Positions 1 through 6,322 of a stretch of DNA of 8,279 nt are shown here, piece by piece; position 1 is the stretch's first letter; the number at the start of each line of letters is the position of its first letter. The position numbers and the translations under genes were made by a program. Under the pieces are notes generated by a model. The model saw only the letters and a list, made by a program, of their open reading frames with translations. It was not told the origin of the DNA and did no database searches. Source of the DNA: a virus (Duplodnaviria > Heunggongvirae > Uroviricota > Caudoviricetes); IMG/VR virus record IMGVR_UViG_2695420456_000001, positions 1 to 8,279 of that record, one strand, 5' to 3'.

Positions 1-379
1 CCTTGCGCTCTTCCGGCTCAATTTCGCCGTCTGCCTCCGCAATGGCCACCGCCACATCCAGCACATCTTCCGCTTCACGCGTATCGTGTTTCACATCTTC
101 AATTTCACGCAATGCCGCTCGACGACCAATTTTAAAGTTCGTATCCAGCTGACCGATAATGGTTGCGCTAATCGCATTAATTTCTGACGTAAACGCGGAC
201 AACGCAGGCTGGTTACGCAAGACCTGCTCGATCTTCGCTTTCTCTGAAGCCTCACATTCACCATCTGCATAGGCCACCAGATAGGCAGCATTAATAACCG
301 CCTGTGCCAGATCACGTTTCTCAAACTTTTTAATTTCCACTGCCGCTCGGCGGGCTTTTTTACCAAAAATACCAAACAT
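1..379 (-). CDS. TerB-like domain protein, partial (about 126 N-terminal codons; C-terminus lies beyond the window start)
   Basis: ATG at 379..377 with AAAGGAA 7 nt upstream. Own translation MFGIFGKKARRAAVEIKKFEKRDLAQAVINAAYLVAYADGECEASEKAKIEQVL...VAVAIAEADGEIEPEERK shows two ADGE motifs in an Ala/Glu-rich helical context, as in TerB (tellurite-resistance) domains. Frame runs open to position 1. The ORF-track entry 91..408 is a different frame and looks non-protein-like. Confidence 0.55.
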   Translation of the reverse strand, partial: MFGIFGKKARRAAVEIKKFEKRDLAQAVINAAYLVAYADGECEASEKAKIEQVLRNQPALSAFTSEINAISATIIGQLDTNFKIGRRAALREIEDVKHDTREAEDVLDVAVAIAEADGEIEPEERK

Positions 380-511
380 CGTGACGTTCCTTTGGGTGGG
401 TGAGCCAACGCCCGGGAGCGATCTGCCCACAGAGAAAGTCACACTGACCACTCCGTAAGCTCACCCCCGAAAGGCTCTGTGGTTGATATGCGCCGGGCGT
501 GGCGCGGATAC

Positions 512-534
512 AAAAAAGGCCGCCAATAGCGACC
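512..534 (-). terminator. Rho-independent terminator (minus strand) downstream of the 69-aa gene
   Basis: Minus-strand RNA GGUCGC-UAUUG-GCGGCC (6-bp stem with one G.U pair) followed by UUUUUU. The G.U pair becomes a C-A mismatch on the plus strand, so it is minus-specific. Confidence 0.55.
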
Positions 535-568
535 TCAGTTACGGGATTATTCTGGGGTTAAACGACTG

Positions 569-778
569 TTACTCCCCCCAGACAAAATCATCACTTCCTG
601 TTCGATGCGAGCCATAGTGAACCTCGTACTTATCTCCCATCTTTCTTGCTTCCATTTCTGCGTCTTCCTCTGTCGCAAAAACCCCAACAAGATGCCAGGG
701 CGAGCTTCTTACCACAGCCCAACCTTTAACCCATCCTTTGTTGTCCTTATCTTCCATTAACACTTCAGAAACAAACAT
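569..778 (-). CDS. Hypothetical small protein (69 aa), possibly DUF2188-like
   Basis: ATG at 778 with AGGAGA 5 nt upstream; stop TAA at 569-571. Translation MFVSEVLMEDKDNKGWVKGWAVVRSSPWHLVGVFATEEDAEMEARKMGDKYEVHYGSHRTGSDDFVWGE. All three Arg codons are AGA, AGA and CGA. Confidence 0.55.
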   Translation of the reverse strand: MFVSEVLMEDKDNKGWVKGWAVVRSSPWHLVGVFATEEDAEMEARKMGDKYEVHYGSHRTGSDDFVWGE

Positions 779-830
779 ATTTATCTCCTTGTGGGTACCC
801 AGAGATATTTTATGATTGCTCCCGGTCAGA

Positions 831-1055
831 TCAATAAAGTGGCTTCAATTTTGCCTTAATGATCAAATCAGGGTGATTGACGGAATCGTACACCACCTCA
901 ATATTTTCATCCGTGGCGTCGATAAGATATTCTTTTACATAAGGACCTGTTGATTTTCCATGAAATACATCTTCAACAAGTACACTCTCCCCCTGAACAA
1001 CACGAAAACTAACTTCTGTTTCGAACGGACCAATCGTCACCATCAGTTTTTTCAC
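831..1055 (-). CDS. Hypothetical small protein (74 aa), unrecognised family
   Basis: GTG start at 1055 with AGGAGG 4 nt upstream; stop TGA at 831-833. Translation MKKLMVTIGPFETEVSFRVVQGESVLVEDVFHGKSTGPYVKEYLIDATDENIEVVYDSVNHPDLIIKAKLKPLY. No signal peptide is evident. Confidence 0.5.
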   Translation of the reverse strand: MKKLMVTIGPFETEVSFRVVQGESVLVEDVFHGKSTGPYVKEYLIDATDENIEVVYDSVNHPDLIIKAKLKPLY

Positions 1056-1107
1056 ATAGCCTCCTGATAAGCACTCGATTTATTAGTTAATGGTGTAACG
1101 CAGATAC

Positions 1108-1132
1108 AAAAAAAGGCCCGCAAAAGCGAGCC
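1108..1132 (-). terminator. Rho-independent terminator (minus strand) immediately after the tRNA cluster
   Basis: Minus-strand RNA GGCUCGC-UUUU-GCGGGCC (7-bp stem with one G.U pair) followed by UUUUUUU. It is homologous to the 512..534 terminator. Confidence 0.6.
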
Positions 1133-1145
1133 AAGTAAATAAATA

Positions 1146-1222
1146 TGGCACGTTGTACTGGATTCGAACCAGTGACCGATTGCTTAGAAGGCAATTGCTC
1201 TGTCCGACTGAGCTAACAACGC
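1146..1222 (-). tRNA. argO: tRNA-Arg (anticodon UCU)
   Basis: Manual cloverleaf on the reverse complement: acceptor GCGTTGT/ACAACGT, D-arm GCTC..GAGC, anticodon stem ATTGC/GCAAT with loop CTTCTAA, T-arm ACTGG-TTCGAAT-CCAGT, discriminator G, encoded CCA. The symbol is assigned from gene order by analogy with the ileZ-argN-argO cluster of Stx phages. Confidence 0.8.
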
Positions 1223-1235
1223 ATGATGCTGATAA

Positions 1236-1312
1236 TGGACCGCCATCGGGGACTTGAACCCCGCACAGCCAGCTTCGAAGGCTGACGCTCTATCCCGATG
1301 AGCTAATGGCGG
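1236..1312 (-). tRNA. argN: tRNA-Arg (anticodon UCG)
   Basis: Reverse complement folds with acceptor CCGCCAT/ATGGCGG (a C1-G72 pair), D-arm GCTC..GAGC, anticodon stem TCAGC/GCTGG with loop CTTCGAA, T-arm CGGGG-TTCAAGT-CCCCG, discriminator T, encoded CCA. The symbol is assigned by position only. Confidence 0.75.
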
Positions 1313-1319
1313 TATGTGA

Positions 1320-1395
1320 TGGTGGCCCTTGCTGGATTTGAACCAGCGACCTGGCGATTATGAGTCGCTCGCTCTCACCACTGAGCTAAAGGGCC
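1320..1395 (-). tRNA. ileZ: tRNA-Ile2 type (anticodon CAU, lysidine-type; a plain scan would call it Met)
   Basis: Reverse complement GGCCCTTTAGCTCAGTGGTGAGAGCGAGCGACTCATAATCGCCAGGTCGCTGGTTCAAATCCAGCAAGGGCCACCA has a perfect 7-bp acceptor, anticodon loop CTCATAA, T-loop TTCAAAT and encoded CCA. It closely resembles E. coli ileX as recalled. Confidence 0.85.
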
Positions 1396-1404
1396 GGGCG
1401 CAGG

Positions 1405-1433
1405 ATAATAACGGTACGTAACTAATTCTGCAA
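1405..1433 (-). promoter_or_regulatory. Candidate sigma70 promoter for the tRNA cluster
   Basis: On the minus strand TTGCAG, a 17-nt spacer, TATTAT, then the GC-rich segment CCTGCGCCC before tRNA position +1. The GC-rich discriminator resembles stable-RNA promoters. Confidence 0.45.
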
Positions 1434-1435
1434 TA

Positions 1436-1534
1436 TCATCCGTTCTGACTGACTACATTCTGAACTTCCCTGACCGTCTGCTCAAAACGCCCGCTCTCCA
1501 GCTCAACGCCAATTGCACGACGCCCCAGCGCCAT
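1436..1534 (-). pseudogene. C-terminal remnant of a DNA methyltransferase (about 32-42 codons)
   Basis: Minus-strand translation ...SVKAAMALGRRAIGVELESGRFEQTVREVQNVVSQNG* resembles the C-terminal AdoMet-binding region of beta-class N6/N4 methyltransferases (LGRRxIGxE). There is no catalytic region upstream; the frame runs into the 1558..1586 terminator hairpin. Confidence 0.3.
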
Positions 1535-1557: not shown

Positions 1558-1586
1558 AAAAAAGCCAGCCACTGGGGGAGGCTGGC
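1558..1586 (-). terminator. Rho-independent terminator (minus strand), second terminator downstream of the pR'-like promoter
   Basis: Minus-strand RNA GCCAGCC-UCCCCCAGU-GGCUGGC (7-bp GC-rich stem) followed by UUUUUU. Confidence 0.5.
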
Positions 1587-1767
1587 GAAACTCGTAGAGC
1601 AAAAGTGTTGTTACACTAACTTCGTCACAGGGTTATCCTGCAATACTCAAAATACACAATATTTACAAAACTAATAGTATACAAGGCGATCTTTAAGATT
1701 TTGTTATAAATTATTGCCTTTCTCCTCTTTCCATGAGCTTTCTGGATAGCCACAGAATTCCGGGTAC

Positions 1768-1794
1768 AGAAAAACCCGCTCAGCGGCGGGTTTT
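1768..1794 (-). terminator. tR'-like intrinsic terminator about 45-70 nt downstream of the pR'-like start
   Basis: Stem CCCGC/GCGGG (extendable by A-T pairs), loop of 6 nt, followed on the minus strand by UUUUU. A T-run on the other side could allow bidirectional function. Confidence 0.6.
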
Positions 1795-1843: not shown

Positions 1844-1872
1844 AATATATGCCTTTTAATCTACTTTTGCAA
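1844..1872 (-). promoter_or_regulatory. pR'-like late promoter immediately after the Q-like gene stop
   Basis: On the minus strand TTGCAA (1872..1867), a 17-nt spacer, TATATT (1849..1844). Predicted start near 1837, with a short leader ending in the 1768..1794 terminator, the arrangement expected for a Q-dependent late promoter. Confidence 0.45.
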
Positions 1873-1876
1873 TACT

Positions 1877-2545
1877 TTACTGTGAAAATGCCGCCTTTTG
1901 TTTTAAACGTGTTCTCGTCACGAACAATAAAGCCTCATTATCCAGCCGGTGAAAAATGTGTTTCATTGCAACCCAGTGGCCAGTAAATGTTTTGGACCAG
2001 TTTTTGGTTGTCACTCCCGCCAGTAATGCCAGCTCCTGGTATTCATAACCTTCCCCACCAAAAAGTTCTGCTTTTACTGCCTGCGCCGCCAGCCAGATTA
2101 ATTTTTTCAGGCGTTCCTGCGTTTTCCCTGCAATTTTTCTGGTACCAGATTGAGTATTAAATTCATTCCACGCCCACTGTGTTATCGCGATCTGATATTC
2201 CCAACAAATGCTCTCGCTGTAACACCACAACAACCAGGCTTTATGATGTTCTTCAAGAGACAGAACAGCCCGCCGCCACGATGATGTCGAAAACTCAACC
2301 GGACTGACCAGAGGAATTGACGTCCCCTTCGCCAGCGATTGCTTCCCCGGGATTGGTGGATTATCCCGCGTTATCATTTTTCCAGTCACTTCATCGCGGT
2401 ACCGGATTTTTTTTCGCCTGTAACGCCCTGTATCGAACATGGCATTCTCTTGCCAGGCTTCAAACTGACCTTTTGTTGCCCCACTCAAATCAGCGGTAGC
2501 GATAATGAGCTGCTCACGCACAAACTGTAAATACTGGTTATTCAT
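1877..2545 (-). CDS. Putative late-gene antiterminator Q-like protein (222 aa), not lambda-Q type
   Basis: Position is canonical: directly after rusA and directly before the pR'-like promoter, tR'-like terminator and tRNA trio. Likely start is ATG 2545, overlapping the rusA stop as ATGA; the track start at 2551 is GTG. No lambda-Q zinc-finger Cys pattern is present, so the family is uncertain and the call rests on synteny. Confidence 0.55.
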   Translation of the reverse strand: MNNQYLQFVREQLIIATADLSGATKGQFEAWQENAMFDTGRYRRKKIRYRDEVTGKMITRDNPPIPGKQSLAKGTSIPLVSPVEFSTSSWRRAVLSLEEHHKAWLLWCYSESICWEYQIAITQWAWNEFNTQSGTRKIAGKTQERLKKLIWLAAQAVKAELFGGEGYEYQELALLAGVTTKNWSKTFTGHWVAMKHIFHRLDNEALLFVTRTRLKQKAAFSQ

Positions 2546-2904
2546 GCGCACTCCAGTTCTGTGATTTTTATTCCAAGCCTCCCACCTGATACTTTCACAC
2601 CACGAATTACGCGAATGTCATCGAATTGCTCGTCGTCTTCCGCAAATCCGGCGTGGATAAGGGAGTCGAGTAAACCTTTCAGGATGTTGTCGAGGTCGCG
2701 GCGGCGGGAGTCTGGAACGTCTGCGATGACTTTGATACGGAGTCGTGATTTGGTGAAAATGTCTAACTTGAGTTGGCGGATGATTTGCTGAACGTCTTTT
2801 CGGTATTTCTGGCCTTTATCGCTGATGTAGTATTGGCTTCCCCGTCTTCGCCAGTAGGTGTTCAGCGACGGCGGATATGGAAGCACAAACTGATATTCGT
2901 TCAT
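2542..2904 (-). CDS. rusA: Holliday-junction resolvase RusA
   Basis: 120 aa, MNEYQFVLPYPPSLNTYW...DSRRRDLDNILKGLLDSLIHAGF...GGRLGIKITELE, matching E. coli RusA hallmarks (PDxRRRDLDN, acidic catalytic residues). Start ATG overlaps the ybcO-like stop as ATGA. Confidence 0.85.
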   Translation of the reverse strand: MNEYQFVLPYPPSLNTYWRRRGSQYYISDKGQKYRKDVQQIIRQLKLDIFTKSRLRIKVIADVPDSRRRDLDNILKGLLDSLIHAGFAEDDEQFDDIRVIRGVKVSGGRLGIKITELECA

Positions 2905-3191
2905 GGCTTAATCTTCCCCTCCTTCAGCAGTATCGCCTGCGTCCTGATCACGCCTTCAAGGTGGTAAAGTCTGGCGTCTTTGTTGTCGAGGTTATGGGTG
3001 CGTCGGTCGATTTCATCGTGACACGCGCTACAAGCCCATGCGCCGATCAGGTCGTCAGGCTTTATTCCCGTTCCGCAAATTCCAGCCATCCGGTAATGTG
3101 CCAGAACTGTAGTTTCAGGGTTTCCATTGCATACGCCGTAAATACGTACCTGGCATTCTCTGCCGCGCGCTTCTTTGCGTAGGTTAGCCAT
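2901..3191 (-). CDS. ybcO: YbcO-like DUF1364 protein (Cys-rich, putative nuclease)
   Basis: 96 aa, MANLRKEARGRECQVRIYGVCNGNPETTVLAHYRMAGICGTGIKPDDLIGAWACSACHDEIDRRTH..., closely resembling DLP12 YbcO as recalled. It sits directly upstream of rusA as in DLP12. Confidence 0.8.
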   Translation of the reverse strand: MANLRKEARGRECQVRIYGVCNGNPETTVLAHYRMAGICGTGIKPDDLIGAWACSACHDEIDRRTHNLDNKDARLYHLEGVIRTQAILLKEGKIKP

Positions 3192-3913
3192 TAAGCAGCC
3201 TCCCCTGTTACTTTCAGCATTCCGTTATCGAGCAGCTTTCTGGTCAGCCACTGTTGACCACGCCCGGTGATTTTTGTGGTGAACGATATCTGTATTCCGT
3301 GATTTGTATTGACCGCTGTTTCTTTCACTGTGAAATAGCCGCGATCCATATATTCCTGCATTGGCACATTGCGCCGGGAACCTGAAGCAATAAGGATTTT
3401 GTGTTCGCGCATCCACGCAAACAGTTTGTTTGGACCAATACCAACAACCTTTGCATAGTTTCCAATCAAAATTCCGCTGGCCTCGCCAACGCGATCGGCA
3501 AACTCAACTTTAGGTGCGGCAATTGCGAGCTGGTTTTCCAGTTGCATTTTCTGCTCAGCAAGATCAGCAGCAAGGCGCAACGCTTCTGGTAGAGTTTTGG
3601 GGATATTAACCGCAGCGTCTTCAAGCTCTCGCCAACGGTCAACAAGACGAGCGGTGAATTCCGGCGACAACTGGGCAACGACAATAATGCTGTCTCGCTT
3701 ACCTTGTTCGCCTTCGAATACATACACACGAAAACTTTGATTTAAGCCTAACCCATTGATTCTTCCACAATCCTCAATTTGAGGATGTCGGATAACACCA
3801 TTTTTAGCCAGCATTTCGATAGTACGTTTCACATTGTCATGACGCTTACCTGTAAGCTCAGAGATTTCAATGCTGGTCATTTTGATGACGTTGCTATTTA
3901 TCAGCTCGTTCAT
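3191..3913 (-). CDS. Phage antirepressor (Rha-type N-terminal domain, KilAC/ANT C-terminal domain)
   Basis: N-terminus ...MTSIEISELTGKRHDNVKRTIEML... is Rha-like; C-terminus ...YAKVVGIGPNKLFAWMREHKIL...NVPMQEYMDRGYF... is KilAC-like. The second ATG (3913) has GAGAGGA 7 nt upstream; the first ATG (3919) is only 1 nt from it. The stop overlaps the ybcO start as TAATG. Confidence 0.8.
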   Translation of the reverse strand: MNELINSNVIKMTSIEISELTGKRHDNVKRTIEMLAKNGVIRHPQIEDCGRINGLGLNQSFRVYVFEGEQGKRDSIIVVAQLSPEFTARLVDRWRELEDAAVNIPKTLPEALRLAADLAEQKMQLENQLAIAAPKVEFADRVGEASGILIGNYAKVVGIGPNKLFAWMREHKILIASGSRRNVPMQEYMDRGYFTVKETAVNTNHGIQISFTTKITGRGQQWLTRKLLDNGMLKVTGEAA

Positions 3914-3946
3914 TGTCATGTCCTCTCATATTGAAAATTCACCAAT

Positions 3947-3968
3947 AAAAAACCCAGCCGAAGCTGGG
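3947..3968 (-). terminator. Rho-independent terminator (minus strand) between the Roi-like gene and the antirepressor
   Basis: Stem CCCAGC/GCUGGG with a 4-nt loop, followed on the minus strand by UUUUUU. Confidence 0.65.
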
Positions 3969-3987
3969 TTTGTTAAGTTGTCAATTG

Positions 3988-4692
3988 TCAGTAGCGATGT
4001 AGTGAAGGAGGTAATTCTTTGTTCTTAAGCCTTACCCATGCGGAAAGATTCGTTGGTCCGTCTGGCTCATTAATATCAACATCTCGTGTGTGATTGATTA
4101 AAACGTCTCTCGCCATTCCAATAACATACGAGAACTCATGACCGTAGTCGTAACATCTGCCGGAATAGTTCGATTGAATTTGCTTTAGCGCTGGATACAA
4201 TTCGCGGAATAATGCCTGTGAGCGGTTAGCATAATCCCACAGCCATACAAGGCTGTCTGTTTCTTTTGCGGAAAGCCCGTTGAGCTTCTTCTCTTGTTTG
4301 CCAGTATTTTTCTCGCACTGGCTGAAATAGCAGTCTTCCAGTTTTTCGAACACTTCCCACGCCTGATCGGTTTCGAGCATTTTGGCGTGACGGGCTGCTC
4401 CGCGTTCTGTCCAGAGGATGAGGGAGCGGGCTTTCGGGGAAATTTGTAACCCTCTTAAAGATGGTTGCAAATTTTGTGAGTTACTTAAAGTAACCCGCAA
4501 AATTTTCAACTCATCACCAACAACCTTGAAAAAGTGTTTACCCTCAACAAAACGCTCGGAATTACGGGTGTAATTTACTTTGATGTTGTTGATCTCGGTA
4601 CAGTAAAGCTGTGCCAGTAACTCGGTAGTGATAACGGGAATTTGGTTGTGTGTAATTGGGGAAAGAGTTTCGACAGAAATCTGAGTGGCCAT
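3988..4692 (-). CDS. ORF6N-domain phage protein (Roi/antirepressor-like)
   Basis: N-terminus ...[10 protein letters not shown]...[11 protein letters not shown]...[16 protein letters not shown] is characteristic of ORF6N/Bro-N-related domains. Probable start is ATG 4692 (GGAG 9 nt upstream) rather than the track start at 4710. Confidence 0.7.
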
Positions 4693-4856
4693 AACGATAA
4701 CTCCGTACATTTGGACATTATCGCCACCGTCAGGTGCTAATCATCATGGTGGCGAACTGTGCGGGGTTAGCACTACCGGGTACGGAAACCGGCGAGCCTT
4801 TCGGCTCCCCCACACAGCCCGCCATAAATCGCGAATGTGACTGTGCAAACGATATG

Positions 4857-5676: not shown

Positions 5677-6119
5677 GCAGCCCTACCTTTTCGTTGTGAC
5701 CATTCATACTCTCGCCGGGAGTCATCACTCCACCGCACGTTGCGCTCTGAGCCGAACCAGAACATGATTTCGATAAGCTCAGTCATGCTGGCCTTCCGCA
5801 TTTTGCTGGTACGCACGCCAAGCATGACAACGCCACCGTCGATACCAGGCCCACTTCGTTGCTCCAGTTTTTTGGTCTTAAGCCACAGGGCAGTGAACAG
5901 GTCTTTCCAGTCTTCCGGCGCCAGCCGTTGACCATGCCATAGCACCTGACGCGAAACATCGTTCAGCATCGGCCACATACGGTCATTCTGCGCTTTGCTG
6001 CGCCTGGGTTCTTTAACGTGGACTTCGTGGGGTGACTTGTCGTCGATGGGTAGTGAGAGAATGGCGTCTATGGCGTTATTTCTGATTGCTTCGTTGCGAA
6101 GCAGAAAGGTTTGCTTCAT
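5673..6119 (-). CDS. ninB: Recombination protein NinB (148 aa)
   Basis: MKQTFLLRNEAIRNNAIDAILSLP...DVSRQVLWHGQRLAPEDWKDLFTA...[23 protein letters not shown] aligns with lambda NinB as recalled. ATG 6119 has GGAG upstream; the track start at 6221 is an N-terminal over-extension. Confidence 0.85.
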   Translation of the reverse strand: MKQTFLLRNEAIRNNAIDAILSLPIDDKSPHEVHVKEPRRSKAQNDRMWPMLNDVSRQVLWHGQRLAPEDWKDLFTALWLKTKKLEQRSGPGIDGGVVMLGVRTSKMRKASMTELIEIMFWFGSERNVRWSDDSRREYEWSQRKGRAA

Positions 6120-6312
6120 CTCCTGCTCTCCGGTTCCATTTTTCAGCCGCCGCAGCAACTGATGGTGCCCATGCCCCCCTGGCTTCACAGAGGTCACATT
6201 CTGCATAGCCCCACACATCAATATTTATTCCGGCCTCAACCCACAGACGAGCATTACCGCCGCAAAACGGACATTCTTTTAGCTTTGGCTGGGTTAATGA
6301 TAGGTCGCTCAT
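6076..6312 (-). CDS. lar: Lar-family restriction-alleviation protein (78 aa)
   Basis: Zinc-ribbon pattern KECPFCGG...CDLCEA followed by AAEKWNRRA, the hallmark of Lar/RalR from Rac. ATG 6312 has AGGAG 5 nt upstream. The 3' end overlaps the ninB start by 44 nt in another frame. Confidence 0.7.
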   Translation of the reverse strand: MSDLSLTQPKLKECPFCGGNARLWVEAGINIDVWGYAECDLCEARGAWAPSVAAAAEKWNRRAGDEANLSASQRSNQK

Positions 6313-6322
6313 GCTCACTCCT

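What the first reader, a model, noticed from the sequence alone, without database searches (positions are those of the whole stretch)
1..1132. Non-stx cargo at the stx-equivalent slot: two unknown small genes plus a TerB-like gene downstream of the Q / pR' / tRNA trio
The Q-like gene, pR'-like promoter, tR'-like terminator and the Ile-CAU / Arg / Arg tRNA trio match the architecture that precedes stxAB in Stx-converting phages. Here the downstream slot holds a 74-aa and a 69-aa protein of unrecognised function and a truncated TerB-like gene. I found no convincing sigma70 promoter in 380..511 or 1056..1107, so expression probably depends on Q-antiterminated read-through across four intrinsic terminators, meaning induction-coupled expression like stx. 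This locus class is where lambdoid phages carry toxins, defence or anti-defence cargo, so this is the best candidate here for an undescribed system.
Basis: partly seen in the sequence, partly recalled or inferred. Interest (0 to 1): 0.7.

Follow-up and report, generated by a model that had tools for sequence, protein, structure and literature searches.

The report
Uncharacterised two-gene moron in stx slot
In this E. coli lambdoid prophage the place where Shiga-toxin phages carry stxAB holds a common TerB/TciA-like gene plus a rarer inserted pair of small cytoplasmic proteins of unknown function, which is an ordinary kind of phage add-on ("moron") and not a recognisable toxin or defence system.

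Summary
On the minus strand the window reads Q, pR'-like promoter, terminators, Ile(CAU)/Arg/Arg tRNAs, a 74-aa gene, a 69-aa gene, and a TerB gene cut at codon 126. Homology with phage 933W stops about 10 nt past the argO terminator. In the full prophage it resumes about 90 nt past the position of stxB, so this is the stx slot.

The cargo is two unrelated modules, not one system.
- TerB plus DUF3927 (tciA/tciB-like) is commonplace: 840 of 5426 complete E. coli genomes, median 6 copies.
- The 74/69 pair is a discrete 597-bp insertion with its own terminator. Phage Evi shows the empty site. It occurs in 110 of 5426 genomes and behind four different Q types.

Relatives of the pair form a conserved adjacent pair in enterobacterial temperate phages. 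They normally sit just after Rz and before the terminase genes.

Both proteins are acidic and lack a hydrophobic N-terminal segment or other long hydrophobic stretch, so they are probably cytoplasmic. Confident models give a small beta-sandwich and a beta-beta-alpha-beta fold. Neither has an informative match in Pfam, NCBIfam, PADLOC, PDB or BFVD.

The 69-aa gene has a conserved -10-like element and a motif that masks its ribosome-binding site. It may therefore not depend only on Q read-through. Function remains unknown, and interest is modest.

The parts
1877..2551 (-). Late antiterminator Q gene (224 aa)
   Evidence: Pfam PF06323, E 4.8e-91; PHROG 304. RefSeq annotates it as 'bacteriophage antitermination protein Q'.
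1844..1872 (-). pR'-like sigma-70 promoter: TTGCAA, 17-nt spacer, TATATT. It begins 5 nt after the Q stop codon.
   Evidence: Consensus scan and sequence. The position matches pR' in 933W. Not tested experimentally.
1768..1794 (-). First intrinsic terminator hairpin after pR'. Homology with 933W begins here.
   Evidence: Sequence CCCGC-loop-GCGGG followed by TTTTT. Alignment with 933W, which annotates a terminator at this position. Fold.
1558..1660 (-). StxS-like segment ending in the second terminator (stem 1586-1564, T-run 1563-1558)
   Evidence: Nearly identical to the 933W segment that ends at its second annotated terminator, about 258 nt from pR'. PMC7547250 places the functional tR' of Stx phages 258 nt from PR' and shows that the short transcript is the sRNA StxS.
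1436..1534 (-). Remnant of a DNA methyltransferase gene (pseudogene fragment)
   Evidence: RefSeq annotation 'site-specific DNA-methyltransferase, incomplete' in L001 and L003. Conserved with 933W.
1405..1433 (-). pT-like promoter for the tRNAs: TTGCAG, 17-nt spacer, TATTAT
   Evidence: Homologous to the 933W feature annotated 'pT; putative tRNA promoter'.
1320..1395 (-). tRNA with CAU anticodon (ileZ-type tRNA-Ile2)
   Evidence: ARAGORN, Rfam 72.5 bits. Annotated tRNA-Ile in RefSeq and ileZ in 933W.
1236..1312 (-). tRNA-Arg (UCG), argN-type
1146..1222 (-). tRNA-Arg (UCU), argO-type
1092..1136 (-). Terminator after argO (stem 1132-1115, T-run to 1108). It is the left copy of the roughly 45-nt direct repeat that brackets the inserted module. 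Homology with 933W ends at about 1099.
831..1055 (-). p74: 74-aa acidic protein (pI 5.0), probably cytoplasmic, predicted small all-beta sandwich, function unknown
807..834 (-). Promoter-like site for p69: TTGATC, 16-nt spacer, TAAAAT
   Evidence: Scan. The A and T at -10 positions 2 and 6 are invariant in 23 divergent loci. The -35 element is not conserved.
783..806 (-). Conserved element ATCTCT-GGGTACCC-ACAAGGAGAT: an anti-Shine-Dalgarno arm plus an 8-10-nt palindrome overlapping the p69 ribosome-binding site
   Evidence: Conserved across E. coli, Xenorhabdus, Yersinia and other loci. Includes the compensatory change GGGTACCC to GGTTAACC. The lowest-energy fold masks the ribosome-binding site in all six variants folded, at -5 to -9 kcal/mol.
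569..778 (-). p69: 69-aa acidic protein (pI 4.9), probably cytoplasmic, beta-beta-alpha-beta fold, strongly conserved SPWHL and GSHRxGSDDF motifs, function unknown
496..539 (-). The module's own intrinsic terminator (stem 536-516, T-run to 510). It is the right copy of the bracketing direct repeat.
   Evidence: Nearly every enterobacterial p69 homologue is followed by such a terminator.
380..495 (-). GC-rich leader of the TerB gene. It is contiguous with the tRNA terminator in phage Evi.
   Evidence: (z = -2.5).
1..379 (-). TerB-family gene (tciA-like), first 126 of 143 codons. The window ends inside it.
   Evidence: Pfam TerB, E 6.5e-12, 46.2 bits. PHROG 632, E 1.9e-59. Full-length protein against Klebsiella TerB 2jxu, E 4e-8. 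Full gene plus DUF3927 in L003 and L001.

Best explanation
The slot between the argO terminator and nanS-p, which holds stxAB in Stx phages, here holds two independent accessory modules.

**(1) The default occupant.** This is a TerB-family gene plus a small DUF3927 membrane protein (tciA/tciB-like). It is very common in lambdoid prophages of EHEC/EPEC-type E. coli.

**(2) A 597-bp moron inserted just after the tRNA terminator.** It carries p74, a short intergenic control region, p69 and its own intrinsic terminator. Relatives of this pair normally lie at the distal end of the lysis cassette, between Rz and the small terminase subunit. Here one variant has been placed in the stx slot by recombination within the T-tract and the following 'GTATCYGCG' of two similar terminators.

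**Expression (inferred).** During induction both genes are read by Q-modified RNA polymerase from pR', across the three upstream terminators, as stx2 is. In addition, p69 probably has a weak promoter of its own (conserved TAnnnT), and its ribosome-binding site is masked by a conserved hairpin or palindrome. It may therefore also be made, under control, in lysogens. Some read-through from the tRNA promoter pT could reach p74.

**Biochemical role (a guess, not shown).** The proteins are probably small acidic cytoplasmic binding proteins. p69 would be the conserved effector, with an invariant aromatic/His/Arg/Asp cluster, and p74 a fast-evolving partner. They would act on a host or competing-phage component. 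They are not secreted toxins.
For: **Slot identity**
- Homology with 933W runs from the first post-pR' terminator to 8-10 nt past the argO terminator.
- It resumes right after DUF3927, about 90 nt past the stxB2 stop.

**Two independent modules**
- TerB-DUF3927 is in 840 of 5426 genomes, median 6 places per genome.
- The pair is in 110 of 5426 genomes.
- Phage Evi has the tRNA-terminator-TerB arrangement with a single hybrid site. Its left half matches the window's argO terminator and its right half matches the sequence after the p69 terminator.
- The same block lies behind four different Q types.

**Pair conservation and usual position**
- In about 120 deduplicated loci, p74-like and p69-like genes are adjacent in about 63. 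They keep the same order and strand, with 40-75 bp between them.
- Hosts include E. coli, Xenorhabdus, Yersinia, Pseudocitrobacter and Scandinavium.
- The pair sits mostly between Rz and the small terminase subunit. Only the window-type variant (>=90% identity) lies between the tRNAs and TerB.

**Moron features**
- Each enterobacterial p69 gene is followed by a GC hairpin plus T-run.
- GC is 39-46% against 49% for the window.
- A conserved -10-like element and an element masking the ribosome-binding site precede p69.

**Protein nature**
- Confident models.
- Acidic, and no hydrophobic N-terminal segment or other long hydrophobic stretch is visible in the sequences (no signal-peptide or transmembrane predictor was run).
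- No hits in Pfam, NCBIfam or PADLOC.

**Late-operon control**
- PMC7547250 shows PR' is constitutive, is terminated at tR', and is antiterminated by Q in Stx phages.
Against: - No expression data were available.
- The promoter-like site has a poorly conserved -35 element. The scan finds 7 such sites per 2 kb against 2.5 expected by chance.
- RNAalifold predicted no consensus structure for the 5' element. Part of its conservation is simply the ribosome-binding site.
- The pairing is not obligatory. p74-like genes occur alone after Rz in 31 loci, including true Stx phages. p69-like genes occur alone in Pseudomonas, Ralstonia, Bordetella and Caulobacteraceae.
- Nothing points to a particular target or activity. 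The fold searches are uninformative.
Confidence: 0.6

Rival explanations
1. The 74-aa, 69-aa and TerB genes form one undescribed, strictly induction-coupled cargo system (toxin, defence or anti-defence) that replaces stx.
For: - Same slot, strand and late transcription unit as stx.
- No strong promoter upstream of p74 or TerB.
- The block tRNA-p74-p69-TerB-DUF3927-NanS travels together behind several Q alleles.
Against: - TerB-DUF3927 is eight times more widespread than the pair and usually lacks it.
- Relatives of the pair mostly sit after Rz with no TerB next to them.
- Phage Evi shows the empty site.
- A terminator separates p69 from TerB.
- No PADLOC hit for any of the three proteins.
Confidence: 0.08
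2. The pair is an accessory of the lysis or late-morphogenesis programme, for example a modulator of lysis timing or of DNA packaging. That would explain why its relatives sit between Rz and the terminase genes.
For: - Most family members lie immediately after Rz.
- In Stx2a/Stx2c phages the p74-like start overlaps the Rz stop by 4 nt.
Against: - No visible membrane segment, signal peptide or lipobox (by eye).
- The genes are absent from most lambdoid phages.
- The Rz-to-terminase interval is itself a known site of accessory genes (bor in lambda; my own knowledge).
- p69 relatives in Pseudomonas and Ralstonia sit among tail genes, or outside any recognisable phage genes, rather than by the lysis genes.
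- The pair works equally well, in evolutionary terms, upstream of the lysis genes, as in this window.
Confidence: 0.12
3. The pair is an anti-defence device. p69 would be a small sponge or inhibitor that neutralises a host immune signal or sensor triggered late in infection. p74 would be an accessory or a second inhibitor.
For: - Small, acidic, cytoplasmic, phage-borne proteins.
- p69 is very strongly conserved across phages of distant hosts, with an invariant W/H/Y/R/D cluster suggestive of a ligand pocket.
- p74 diverges fast, as proteins in conflict often do.
Against: - No similarity in sequence or fold to any solved anti-defence protein.
- The apparent promoter-plus-terminator (moron) organisation suggests expression in lysogens, which fits host modulation or exclusion better.
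- Purely circumstantial.
Confidence: 0.15
4. The pair is a toxin-antitoxin or similar addiction module.
For: - Two small adjacent co-oriented genes.
- A palindrome near the start of the second gene could be an operator.
Against: - No toxin or antitoxin domains.
- Both proteins are acidic.
- The genes are separated by 40-75 bp with separate ribosome-binding sites.
- Each gene often occurs without the other.
Confidence: 0.03
5. The two ORFs are not functional genes, that is, chance ORFs or decaying remnants.
For: Short length, and a 'hypothetical protein' label in every database entry.
Against: - Protein-level conservation from E. coli to Xenorhabdus and beyond, at E 1e-20 to 1e-40.
- Good ribosome-binding sites.
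- Confident AlphaFold models.
- 102 of 110 genomes carry the module at >=99% identity with intact ORFs.
Confidence: 0.02

Closest known systems
stx2AB locus of Stx2-converting phage 933W (Q, pR', tR', ileZ-argN-argO, stxAB, nanS-p, S-R-Rz)
   Same: - Same order of regulatory and tRNA elements. The tRNA region is 95-96% identical.
- The cargo boundaries coincide with those of stxAB.
- The same late-operon logic is expected.
   Different: - No stx genes.
- The Q gene and pR' are of a different type (PF06323 Q), so homology begins only at the first terminator.
- The cargo proteins have no visible signal peptide and no similarity to AB5 toxins.
Phage morons as defined for lambdoid and HK97-type phages (an extra gene with its own promoter and terminator between conserved genes, e.g. 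lambda bor and lom, HK97 gp15)
   Same: - Presence/absence polymorphism with an identifiable empty site.
- Own terminator.
- Promoter-like element.
- Lower GC than the surroundings.
- Located in the late operon.
   Different: - A two-gene unit rather than a single gene.
- Products are probably soluble cytoplasmic proteins rather than envelope proteins.
- Promoter activity is untested.
tciA/tciB of phage P1 and TerB of the ter operon (Klebsiella TerB, PDB 2jxu)
   Same: - The truncated gene is a TerB-domain protein. It is followed, outside the window, by a DUF3927/TciB-like small membrane protein.
- Phage records annotate this pair as tciA/tciB.
   Different: - No other ter genes are present.
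- The function of the phage tciA/tciB genes is unknown. P1 tciA scored as non-essential in PMC10695390.
PHROG 2571 and PHROG 4280 (unknown function); Pfam DUF7336
   Same: p74 matches PHROG 2571 (E 1.9e-26). p69 matches PHROG 4280 (E 2.2e-40).
   Different: - Neither PHROG has an assigned function.
- DUF7336 is matched only weakly, at 18.4 bits against a cut-off of 25.

Membership tests
Stx-phage-type late regulatory region | Q antiterminator gene directly upstream of a late promoter | tested here: met
   PF06323, E 4.8e-91. TTGCAA-17-TATATT begins 5 nt after the Q stop codon.
Stx-phage-type late regulatory region | Terminators and the ileZ-argN-argO trio homologous to those of 933W | tested here: met
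   95-96% identity over window 1099-1450. Alignment from the first terminator onwards. tRNAs.
Stx-phage-type late regulatory region | stxA and stxB between argO and nanS-p | tested here: not met
   The slot holds p74, p69, TerB and DUF3927 instead. No toxin domain found.
Stx-phage-type late regulatory region | Q-dependent expression of the cargo on induction | not testable with these tools
   Requires RNA-seq or reporter assays with and without mitomycin C or Q.
TerB family (PF05099) | TerB domain above the Pfam gathering score | tested here: met
   46.2 bits against 24.4. Full-length protein matches TerB 2jxu over residues 15-137, E 4e-8.
TerB family (PF05099) | Role in tellurite, colicin or phage resistance | not testable with these tools
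   The name rests on annotation only. P1 tciA is reported only as non-essential (PMC10695390).
Moron | Discrete insertion relative to related genomes, with an identifiable empty site | tested here: met
   The single site in phage Evi is a hybrid of the two repeat copies. The repeat copies are 597 bp apart.
Moron | Own transcription terminator | tested here: met
   Hairpin 536-516 plus T-run. A terminator follows p69 in essentially all enterobacterial loci.
Moron | Own promoter active in the lysogen | tested here: inconclusive
   TTGATC-16-TAAAAT at 834-807. The A and T at -10 positions 2 and 6 are invariant in 23 loci. The -35 element is not conserved and there are no expression data. No promoter-like site before p74.
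Moron | Base composition different from the flanking phage genes | tested here: met
   p74 39% and p69 46% GC against 49% for the window.
Known anti-phage defence systems (PADLOC-DB) | Match to a defence-system protein model | tested here: not met
   No significant hit for p74, p69 or TerB. The only hit is Cas7c at E 0.027, taken as chance.
Type II toxin-antitoxin module | Recognisable toxin or antitoxin domain, and obligate co-occurrence of the two genes | tested here: not met
   No such domains. p74-like genes occur alone in 31 loci and p69-like genes alone in about 21 loci.
DUF7336 (PF24024) | Score above the gathering cut-off | tested here: not met
   18.4 bits against 25. Only 6 of 13 family members reach E <= 0.1.

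The most novel reading that the evidence does not exclude
p74 and p69 constitute an undescribed two-protein phage accessory system. p69 would be a highly conserved small ligand- or protein-binding effector, found in temperate phages from Enterobacterales to Pseudomonas and Caulobacteraceae. It would be controlled by a conserved palindromic operator or a hairpin masking its ribosome-binding site. p74 would be a rapidly evolving specificity partner. The system would act in inter-phage conflict, as exclusion or anti-defence, or in host reprogramming.
Probability: 0.2. Interest if true: 0.6.

Novelty: new member of a known kind. Interest (0 to 1): 0.35.

Why it matters
- The stx slot of lambdoid prophages is a recognised site for accessory cargo, so knowing what else occupies it helps interpret the many stx-negative prophages of EHEC and EPEC.
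- The slot here is not holding a hidden toxin or a known defence system. It holds a commonplace tciA/tciB-like module plus a mobile two-gene moron.
- The useful new points are modest:
  - The two hypothetical proteins form a conserved pair.
  - The pair has a characteristic position after Rz, its own terminator, and a conserved control element in front of p69.
- These points give a defined, easily cloned 600-bp unit for functional tests.
- The same p74 family is carried by genuine Stx1 and Stx2 phages.

Tried and rejected
- **Family searches.** Pfam, NCBIfam, PHROGs and PADLOC on p74, p69 and TerB gave only TerB and unknown-function PHROGs.
- **Exhaustive HMMER search with p74.** It returned 11 cluster representatives. 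Two long repeat proteins among them (P0026, P0027) were judged spurious.
- **Apparent p74 fusions.** P0022, P0029, P0039, P0107 and P0118-P0126 looked like fusions of p74 with other domains. They are probably read-through or frameshift joins with neighbouring genes, or matches only to a C-terminal extension in my first alignment. Pfam found only DUF1737 and a faint tail-tip hit, so they give no functional clue.
- **Profile searches of PDB sequences.** Nothing.
- **Rfam.** Only the three tRNAs. The weak Qrr and IsrK-like hits are below threshold.
- **RNAalifold on the p69 5' element.** No consensus structure predicted.
- **Literature.** No paper mentions the protein accessions, ECO26_2257 or DUF7336. 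No paper held all of ileZ, argN, argO and prophage. One search for 'mEp237' was swamped by unrelated DOIs.
- **Rejected readings.** A toxin-antitoxin module and a single three-gene system were both considered and rejected, for the reasons given under the rival explanations.
Full report
**What the window is**

All genes of the 8279-bp window lie on the minus strand. Together they form the early-right and late-regulatory region of a lambdoid prophage. In transcription order they are:
- end of a replication gene
- P, ren
- small genes including a Lar-like ORF
- ninB, an N6-adenine methylase, ninE
- two antirepressor-like genes
- DUF1364, rusA, Q
- three tRNAs
- two small genes
- a TerB gene cut by the window edge

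The best full-length match is a prophage of E. coli 2013C-3264 (99.5% identity; locus L003). Downstream of the window that prophage continues with the last 17 codons of TerB, DUF3927, a SASA/NanS-p esterase, holin, lysozyme, Rz, and the terminase genes.

**Check of the observation**

- Q (1877-2551) matches PF06323 at E 4.8e-91.
- Five bases after its stop codon lies TTGCAA-17-TATATT (1872-1844).
- Hairpin-plus-T-run terminators lie at about 1794-1768, 1586-1558, 1132-1108 and 536-510.
- The three tRNAs (CAU, UCG and UCU anticodons) are found by ARAGORN and Rfam. They correspond to ileZ, argN and argO of 933W.
- Window 1099-1450 is 95-96% identical to Stx2 phages.
- The 74-aa ORF (831-1055, GTG start, AGGAGG ribosome-binding site) and the 69-aa ORF (569-778, ATG start, AAGGAG ribosome-binding site) are annotated in RefSeq as hypothetical proteins.
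- The TerB gene starts at 379 and is cut after codon 126 of 143.

**Is it the stx slot?**

Yes. In a three-way alignment with 933W and the O26:H11 11368 prophage, the sequences upstream of the first terminator differ, because each Q type brings its own pR'. From that terminator to 8-10 nt past the argO terminator (window about 1099) they are nearly identical. They then diverge exactly where the stxA2 upstream region begins in 933W.

In the full prophage, similarity to 933W resumes 16 nt after the DUF3927 stop codon. The matching 933W segment begins about 90 nt after the stxB2 stop. So a 1330-bp, four-gene segment here replaces the 1371-bp stx2AB segment.

**The cargo is two modules, not one**

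TerB plus DUF3927 is widespread.
- It occurs in 840 of 5426 complete E. coli genomes, with a median of 6 places per genome that has any.
- Phage records annotate it as tciA/tciB, after P1.
- The full protein aligns with Klebsiella TerB (2jxu) at E 4e-8.

The two small genes are much rarer.
- They occur in 110 of 5426 genomes. Of these, 102 carry them at >=99% identity, mostly in O26, O145, O111, O157 and related strains.
- They are bracketed by a direct repeat of about 45 nt, at 496-539 and 1092-1136, with copies 597 bp apart. The repeat consists of a terminator and the bases after it.
- Phage Evi has the tRNAs followed directly by TerB. Its single site is a hybrid: the left half matches the argO terminator and the right half matches the sequence after the p69 terminator.

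The pair is therefore a discrete 597-bp insertion that brought its own terminator. The junction lies in the shared TTTTTTGTATCYGCG sequence. The same tRNA-p74-p69-TerB block is found behind four different Q types, so it is not tied to one Q allele.

**The pair elsewhere**

p74 alone finds few relatives. A profile finds 105 clusters. All carry 'hypothetical' names, and those with an organism name are Enterobacteriaceae. p69 has a small, strongly conserved family.

I scanned IMG/VR and one genome per GTDB species and searched the retrieved loci with HMMs of both families. In about 120 deduplicated loci:
- The two genes are adjacent in about 63. The order is p74-like then p69-like, on the same strand, 40-75 bp apart. 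Hosts include E. coli, Xenorhabdus, Yersinia, Pseudocitrobacter and Scandinavium. The cultured phage mEp237 also carries the pair (genes 060/061).
- Their usual position is immediately after Rz and before the small terminase subunit.
- Only the window-type variant (>=90% identity) sits between the tRNAs and TerB.
- p74-like genes occur alone after Rz in 31 loci, including genuine Stx1, Stx2a and Stx2c phages and H-19B. In these the start can overlap the Rz stop by 4 nt.
- p69-like genes occur alone in Pseudomonas, Azotobacter, Ralstonia, Bordetella and Caulobacteraceae. Some lie among tail genes, one next to a SocA/Panacea gene.

**Control elements**

Nearly every enterobacterial p69 gene is followed within 20-60 nt by a strong intrinsic terminator.

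Upstream of p69, otherwise divergent intergenic regions share a TAnnnT hexamer. Its A and T are invariant in 23 sequences. Six to eight bases further downstream comes (A)TCTCC-GGGTACCC-AAA-GGAGA(T).
- The outer arms pair the ribosome-binding site with an anti-Shine-Dalgarno sequence.
- The inner 8-10 nt form a palindrome. In a Yersinia/Scandinavium group it changes from GGGTACCC to GGTTAACC and so stays palindromic.
- Pair counts exceed all 500 shuffles and all slid controls. However, the number of independent changes is small and part of the conservation is the ribosome-binding site itself.
- RNAalifold predicted no consensus structure.
- Single-sequence folds mask the ribosome-binding site in all six variants tried, at -5 to -9 kcal/mol.

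In the window the corresponding promoter-like site is TTGATC-16-TAAAAT (834-807) and the element lies at 806-783. I read this as a probable weak promoter plus either a translational hairpin or an operator. It is untested.

No promoter-like site precedes p74 or TerB. The homologue of 933W's annotated tRNA promoter pT is conserved at 1433-1405.

**The proteins**

By eye neither sequence has a hydrophobic N-terminal segment or any other long hydrophobic stretch, so both are probably cytoplasmic; no signal-peptide or transmembrane predictor was run.

| Property | p74 | p69 |
|---|---|---|
| pI | 5.0 | 4.9 |
| AlphaFold model | six-stranded beta-sandwich, pLDDT 87 | beta-beta-alpha-beta unit, pLDDT 90 |

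For p69, BFVD gave nothing significant. PDB sequence profiles gave nothing for either protein. PADLOC and NCBIfam gave nothing, and the PHROG families are of unknown function.

p69 has 24 invariant positions, including SPWHL and GS(H)RxGSDDF. That suggests a conserved binding surface or pocket. This is an inference, not a result.

**How it most likely works**

What homology shows: the cargo lies in the pR' late transcription unit. In Stx phages, PR' is constitutive, terminates at tR' in lysogens, and is read through by Q-modified polymerase on induction (PMC7547250). The same is expected here. Three terminators precede p74 and p69, and four precede TerB.

What is inferred: p69, and possibly only p69, can also be transcribed from its own weak promoter, with translation or transcription tuned by the conserved element. 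This is the classic moron arrangement and implies some expression in lysogens.

The biochemical role is unknown. My best guess is a pair of cytoplasmic binding proteins that act on a host or competing-phage component. I give roughly equal, low weight to exclusion or host modulation, to anti-defence, and to a late or lysis-associated role.

**Comparison and novelty**

The architecture matches that of 933W except for the Q/pR' type and the cargo. TerB is a member of PF05099. The pair meets three of the four moron criteria I could test; promoter activity remains inconclusive. It fails the tests for known defence systems, for toxin-antitoxin modules and for DUF7336.

No paper in the searchable library mentions these proteins. 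This is a new, uncharacterised member of a familiar kind of element, not a new kind.

**Verdict**

The interest is modest. It rests on the conserved pairing, on the cis element, and on the presence of the p74 family in true Stx phages.

Noticed in passing
window 1558-1660 (minus strand): The segment ending at the second terminator is nearly identical to the 933W segment ending about 258 nt from pR'. In Stx phages that transcript is the Hfq-binding sRNA StxS (PMC7547250). This stx-negative prophage therefore probably makes a StxS-like RNA. Rfam has no model for it, and only weak Qrr and IsrK-like hits appear there.
   Followed up: partly
window 783-806 (minus strand); the same element in L005, L008, L010, L012-L021, L064-L136: A conserved element directly upstream of p69-family genes: an anti-Shine-Dalgarno arm plus an 8-10-nt palindrome, with the compensatory change GGGTACCC to GGTTAACC. 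A TAnnnT -10-like hexamer precedes it. It could be a hairpin masking the ribosome-binding site, an RNA thermometer-like element, or an operator.
   Followed up: partly
window 380-509 (minus strand): The GC-rich (58%) leader of the TerB gene folds into a long hairpin (-69 kcal/mol for 377-545, z = -2.5). Its conservation among the thousands of TerB copies was not examined.
   Followed up: no
window 338-362 (plus strand): A terminator-like hairpin plus T-run lies antisense to the 5' end of the TerB gene. It is similar to 110-134 and is an inverted copy of the terminator at 1557-1570. It may be chance.
   Followed up: no
L004 4001-4225; L137, L159, L161, L162, L168, L183: Genuine Stx1, Stx2a and Stx2c phages and H-19B carry a p74-family gene alone immediately after Rz. 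In L004 the start overlaps the Rz stop by 4 nt. It is about 41% identical to the window protein.
   Followed up: partly
L029 5280-6222; L024; L035: p69-family genes outside Enterobacterales sit in varied contexts. In a Pseudomonas saxonica prophage the gene lies among lambda-like tail genes, next to a SocA/Panacea-domain gene. In a Ralstonia MAG it lies near a tail-fibre chaperone gene. In a Caulobacteraceae MAG it lies between a GroEL-like ORF and a large ORF whose N-terminus looks TIR-like by eye (not checked).
   Followed up: partly
window 1436-1534 (minus strand): A fragment of a site-specific DNA methyltransferase gene lies between the second terminator and the tRNA promoter. It is conserved with Stx phages and annotated as a pseudogene in RefSeq.
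   Followed up: no
window 6076-6318 (minus strand): An 80-aa zinc-ribbon-like ORF overlaps the start of ninB. It corresponds to a 'Lar family restriction alleviation protein' that is annotated as frameshifted in the closest genome.
   Followed up: no
window 3191-4710 (minus strand): Two tandem antirepressor-type genes (Ant, 3988-4710, and a KilAC-domain protein, 3191-3919) lie between ninE and DUF1364/rusA in the nin region.
   Followed up: no
L003 17510-17832 (outside the window): The segment just after DUF3927 is homologous to the segment after stxB2 in 933W. It carries a minus-strand pseudo-CDS. PMC4104026 places the anti-sRNA AsxR 3' of, and antisense to, the stx2 transcript. Whether an AsxR/AgvB-type anti-sRNA is present here was not checked.
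   Followed up: no
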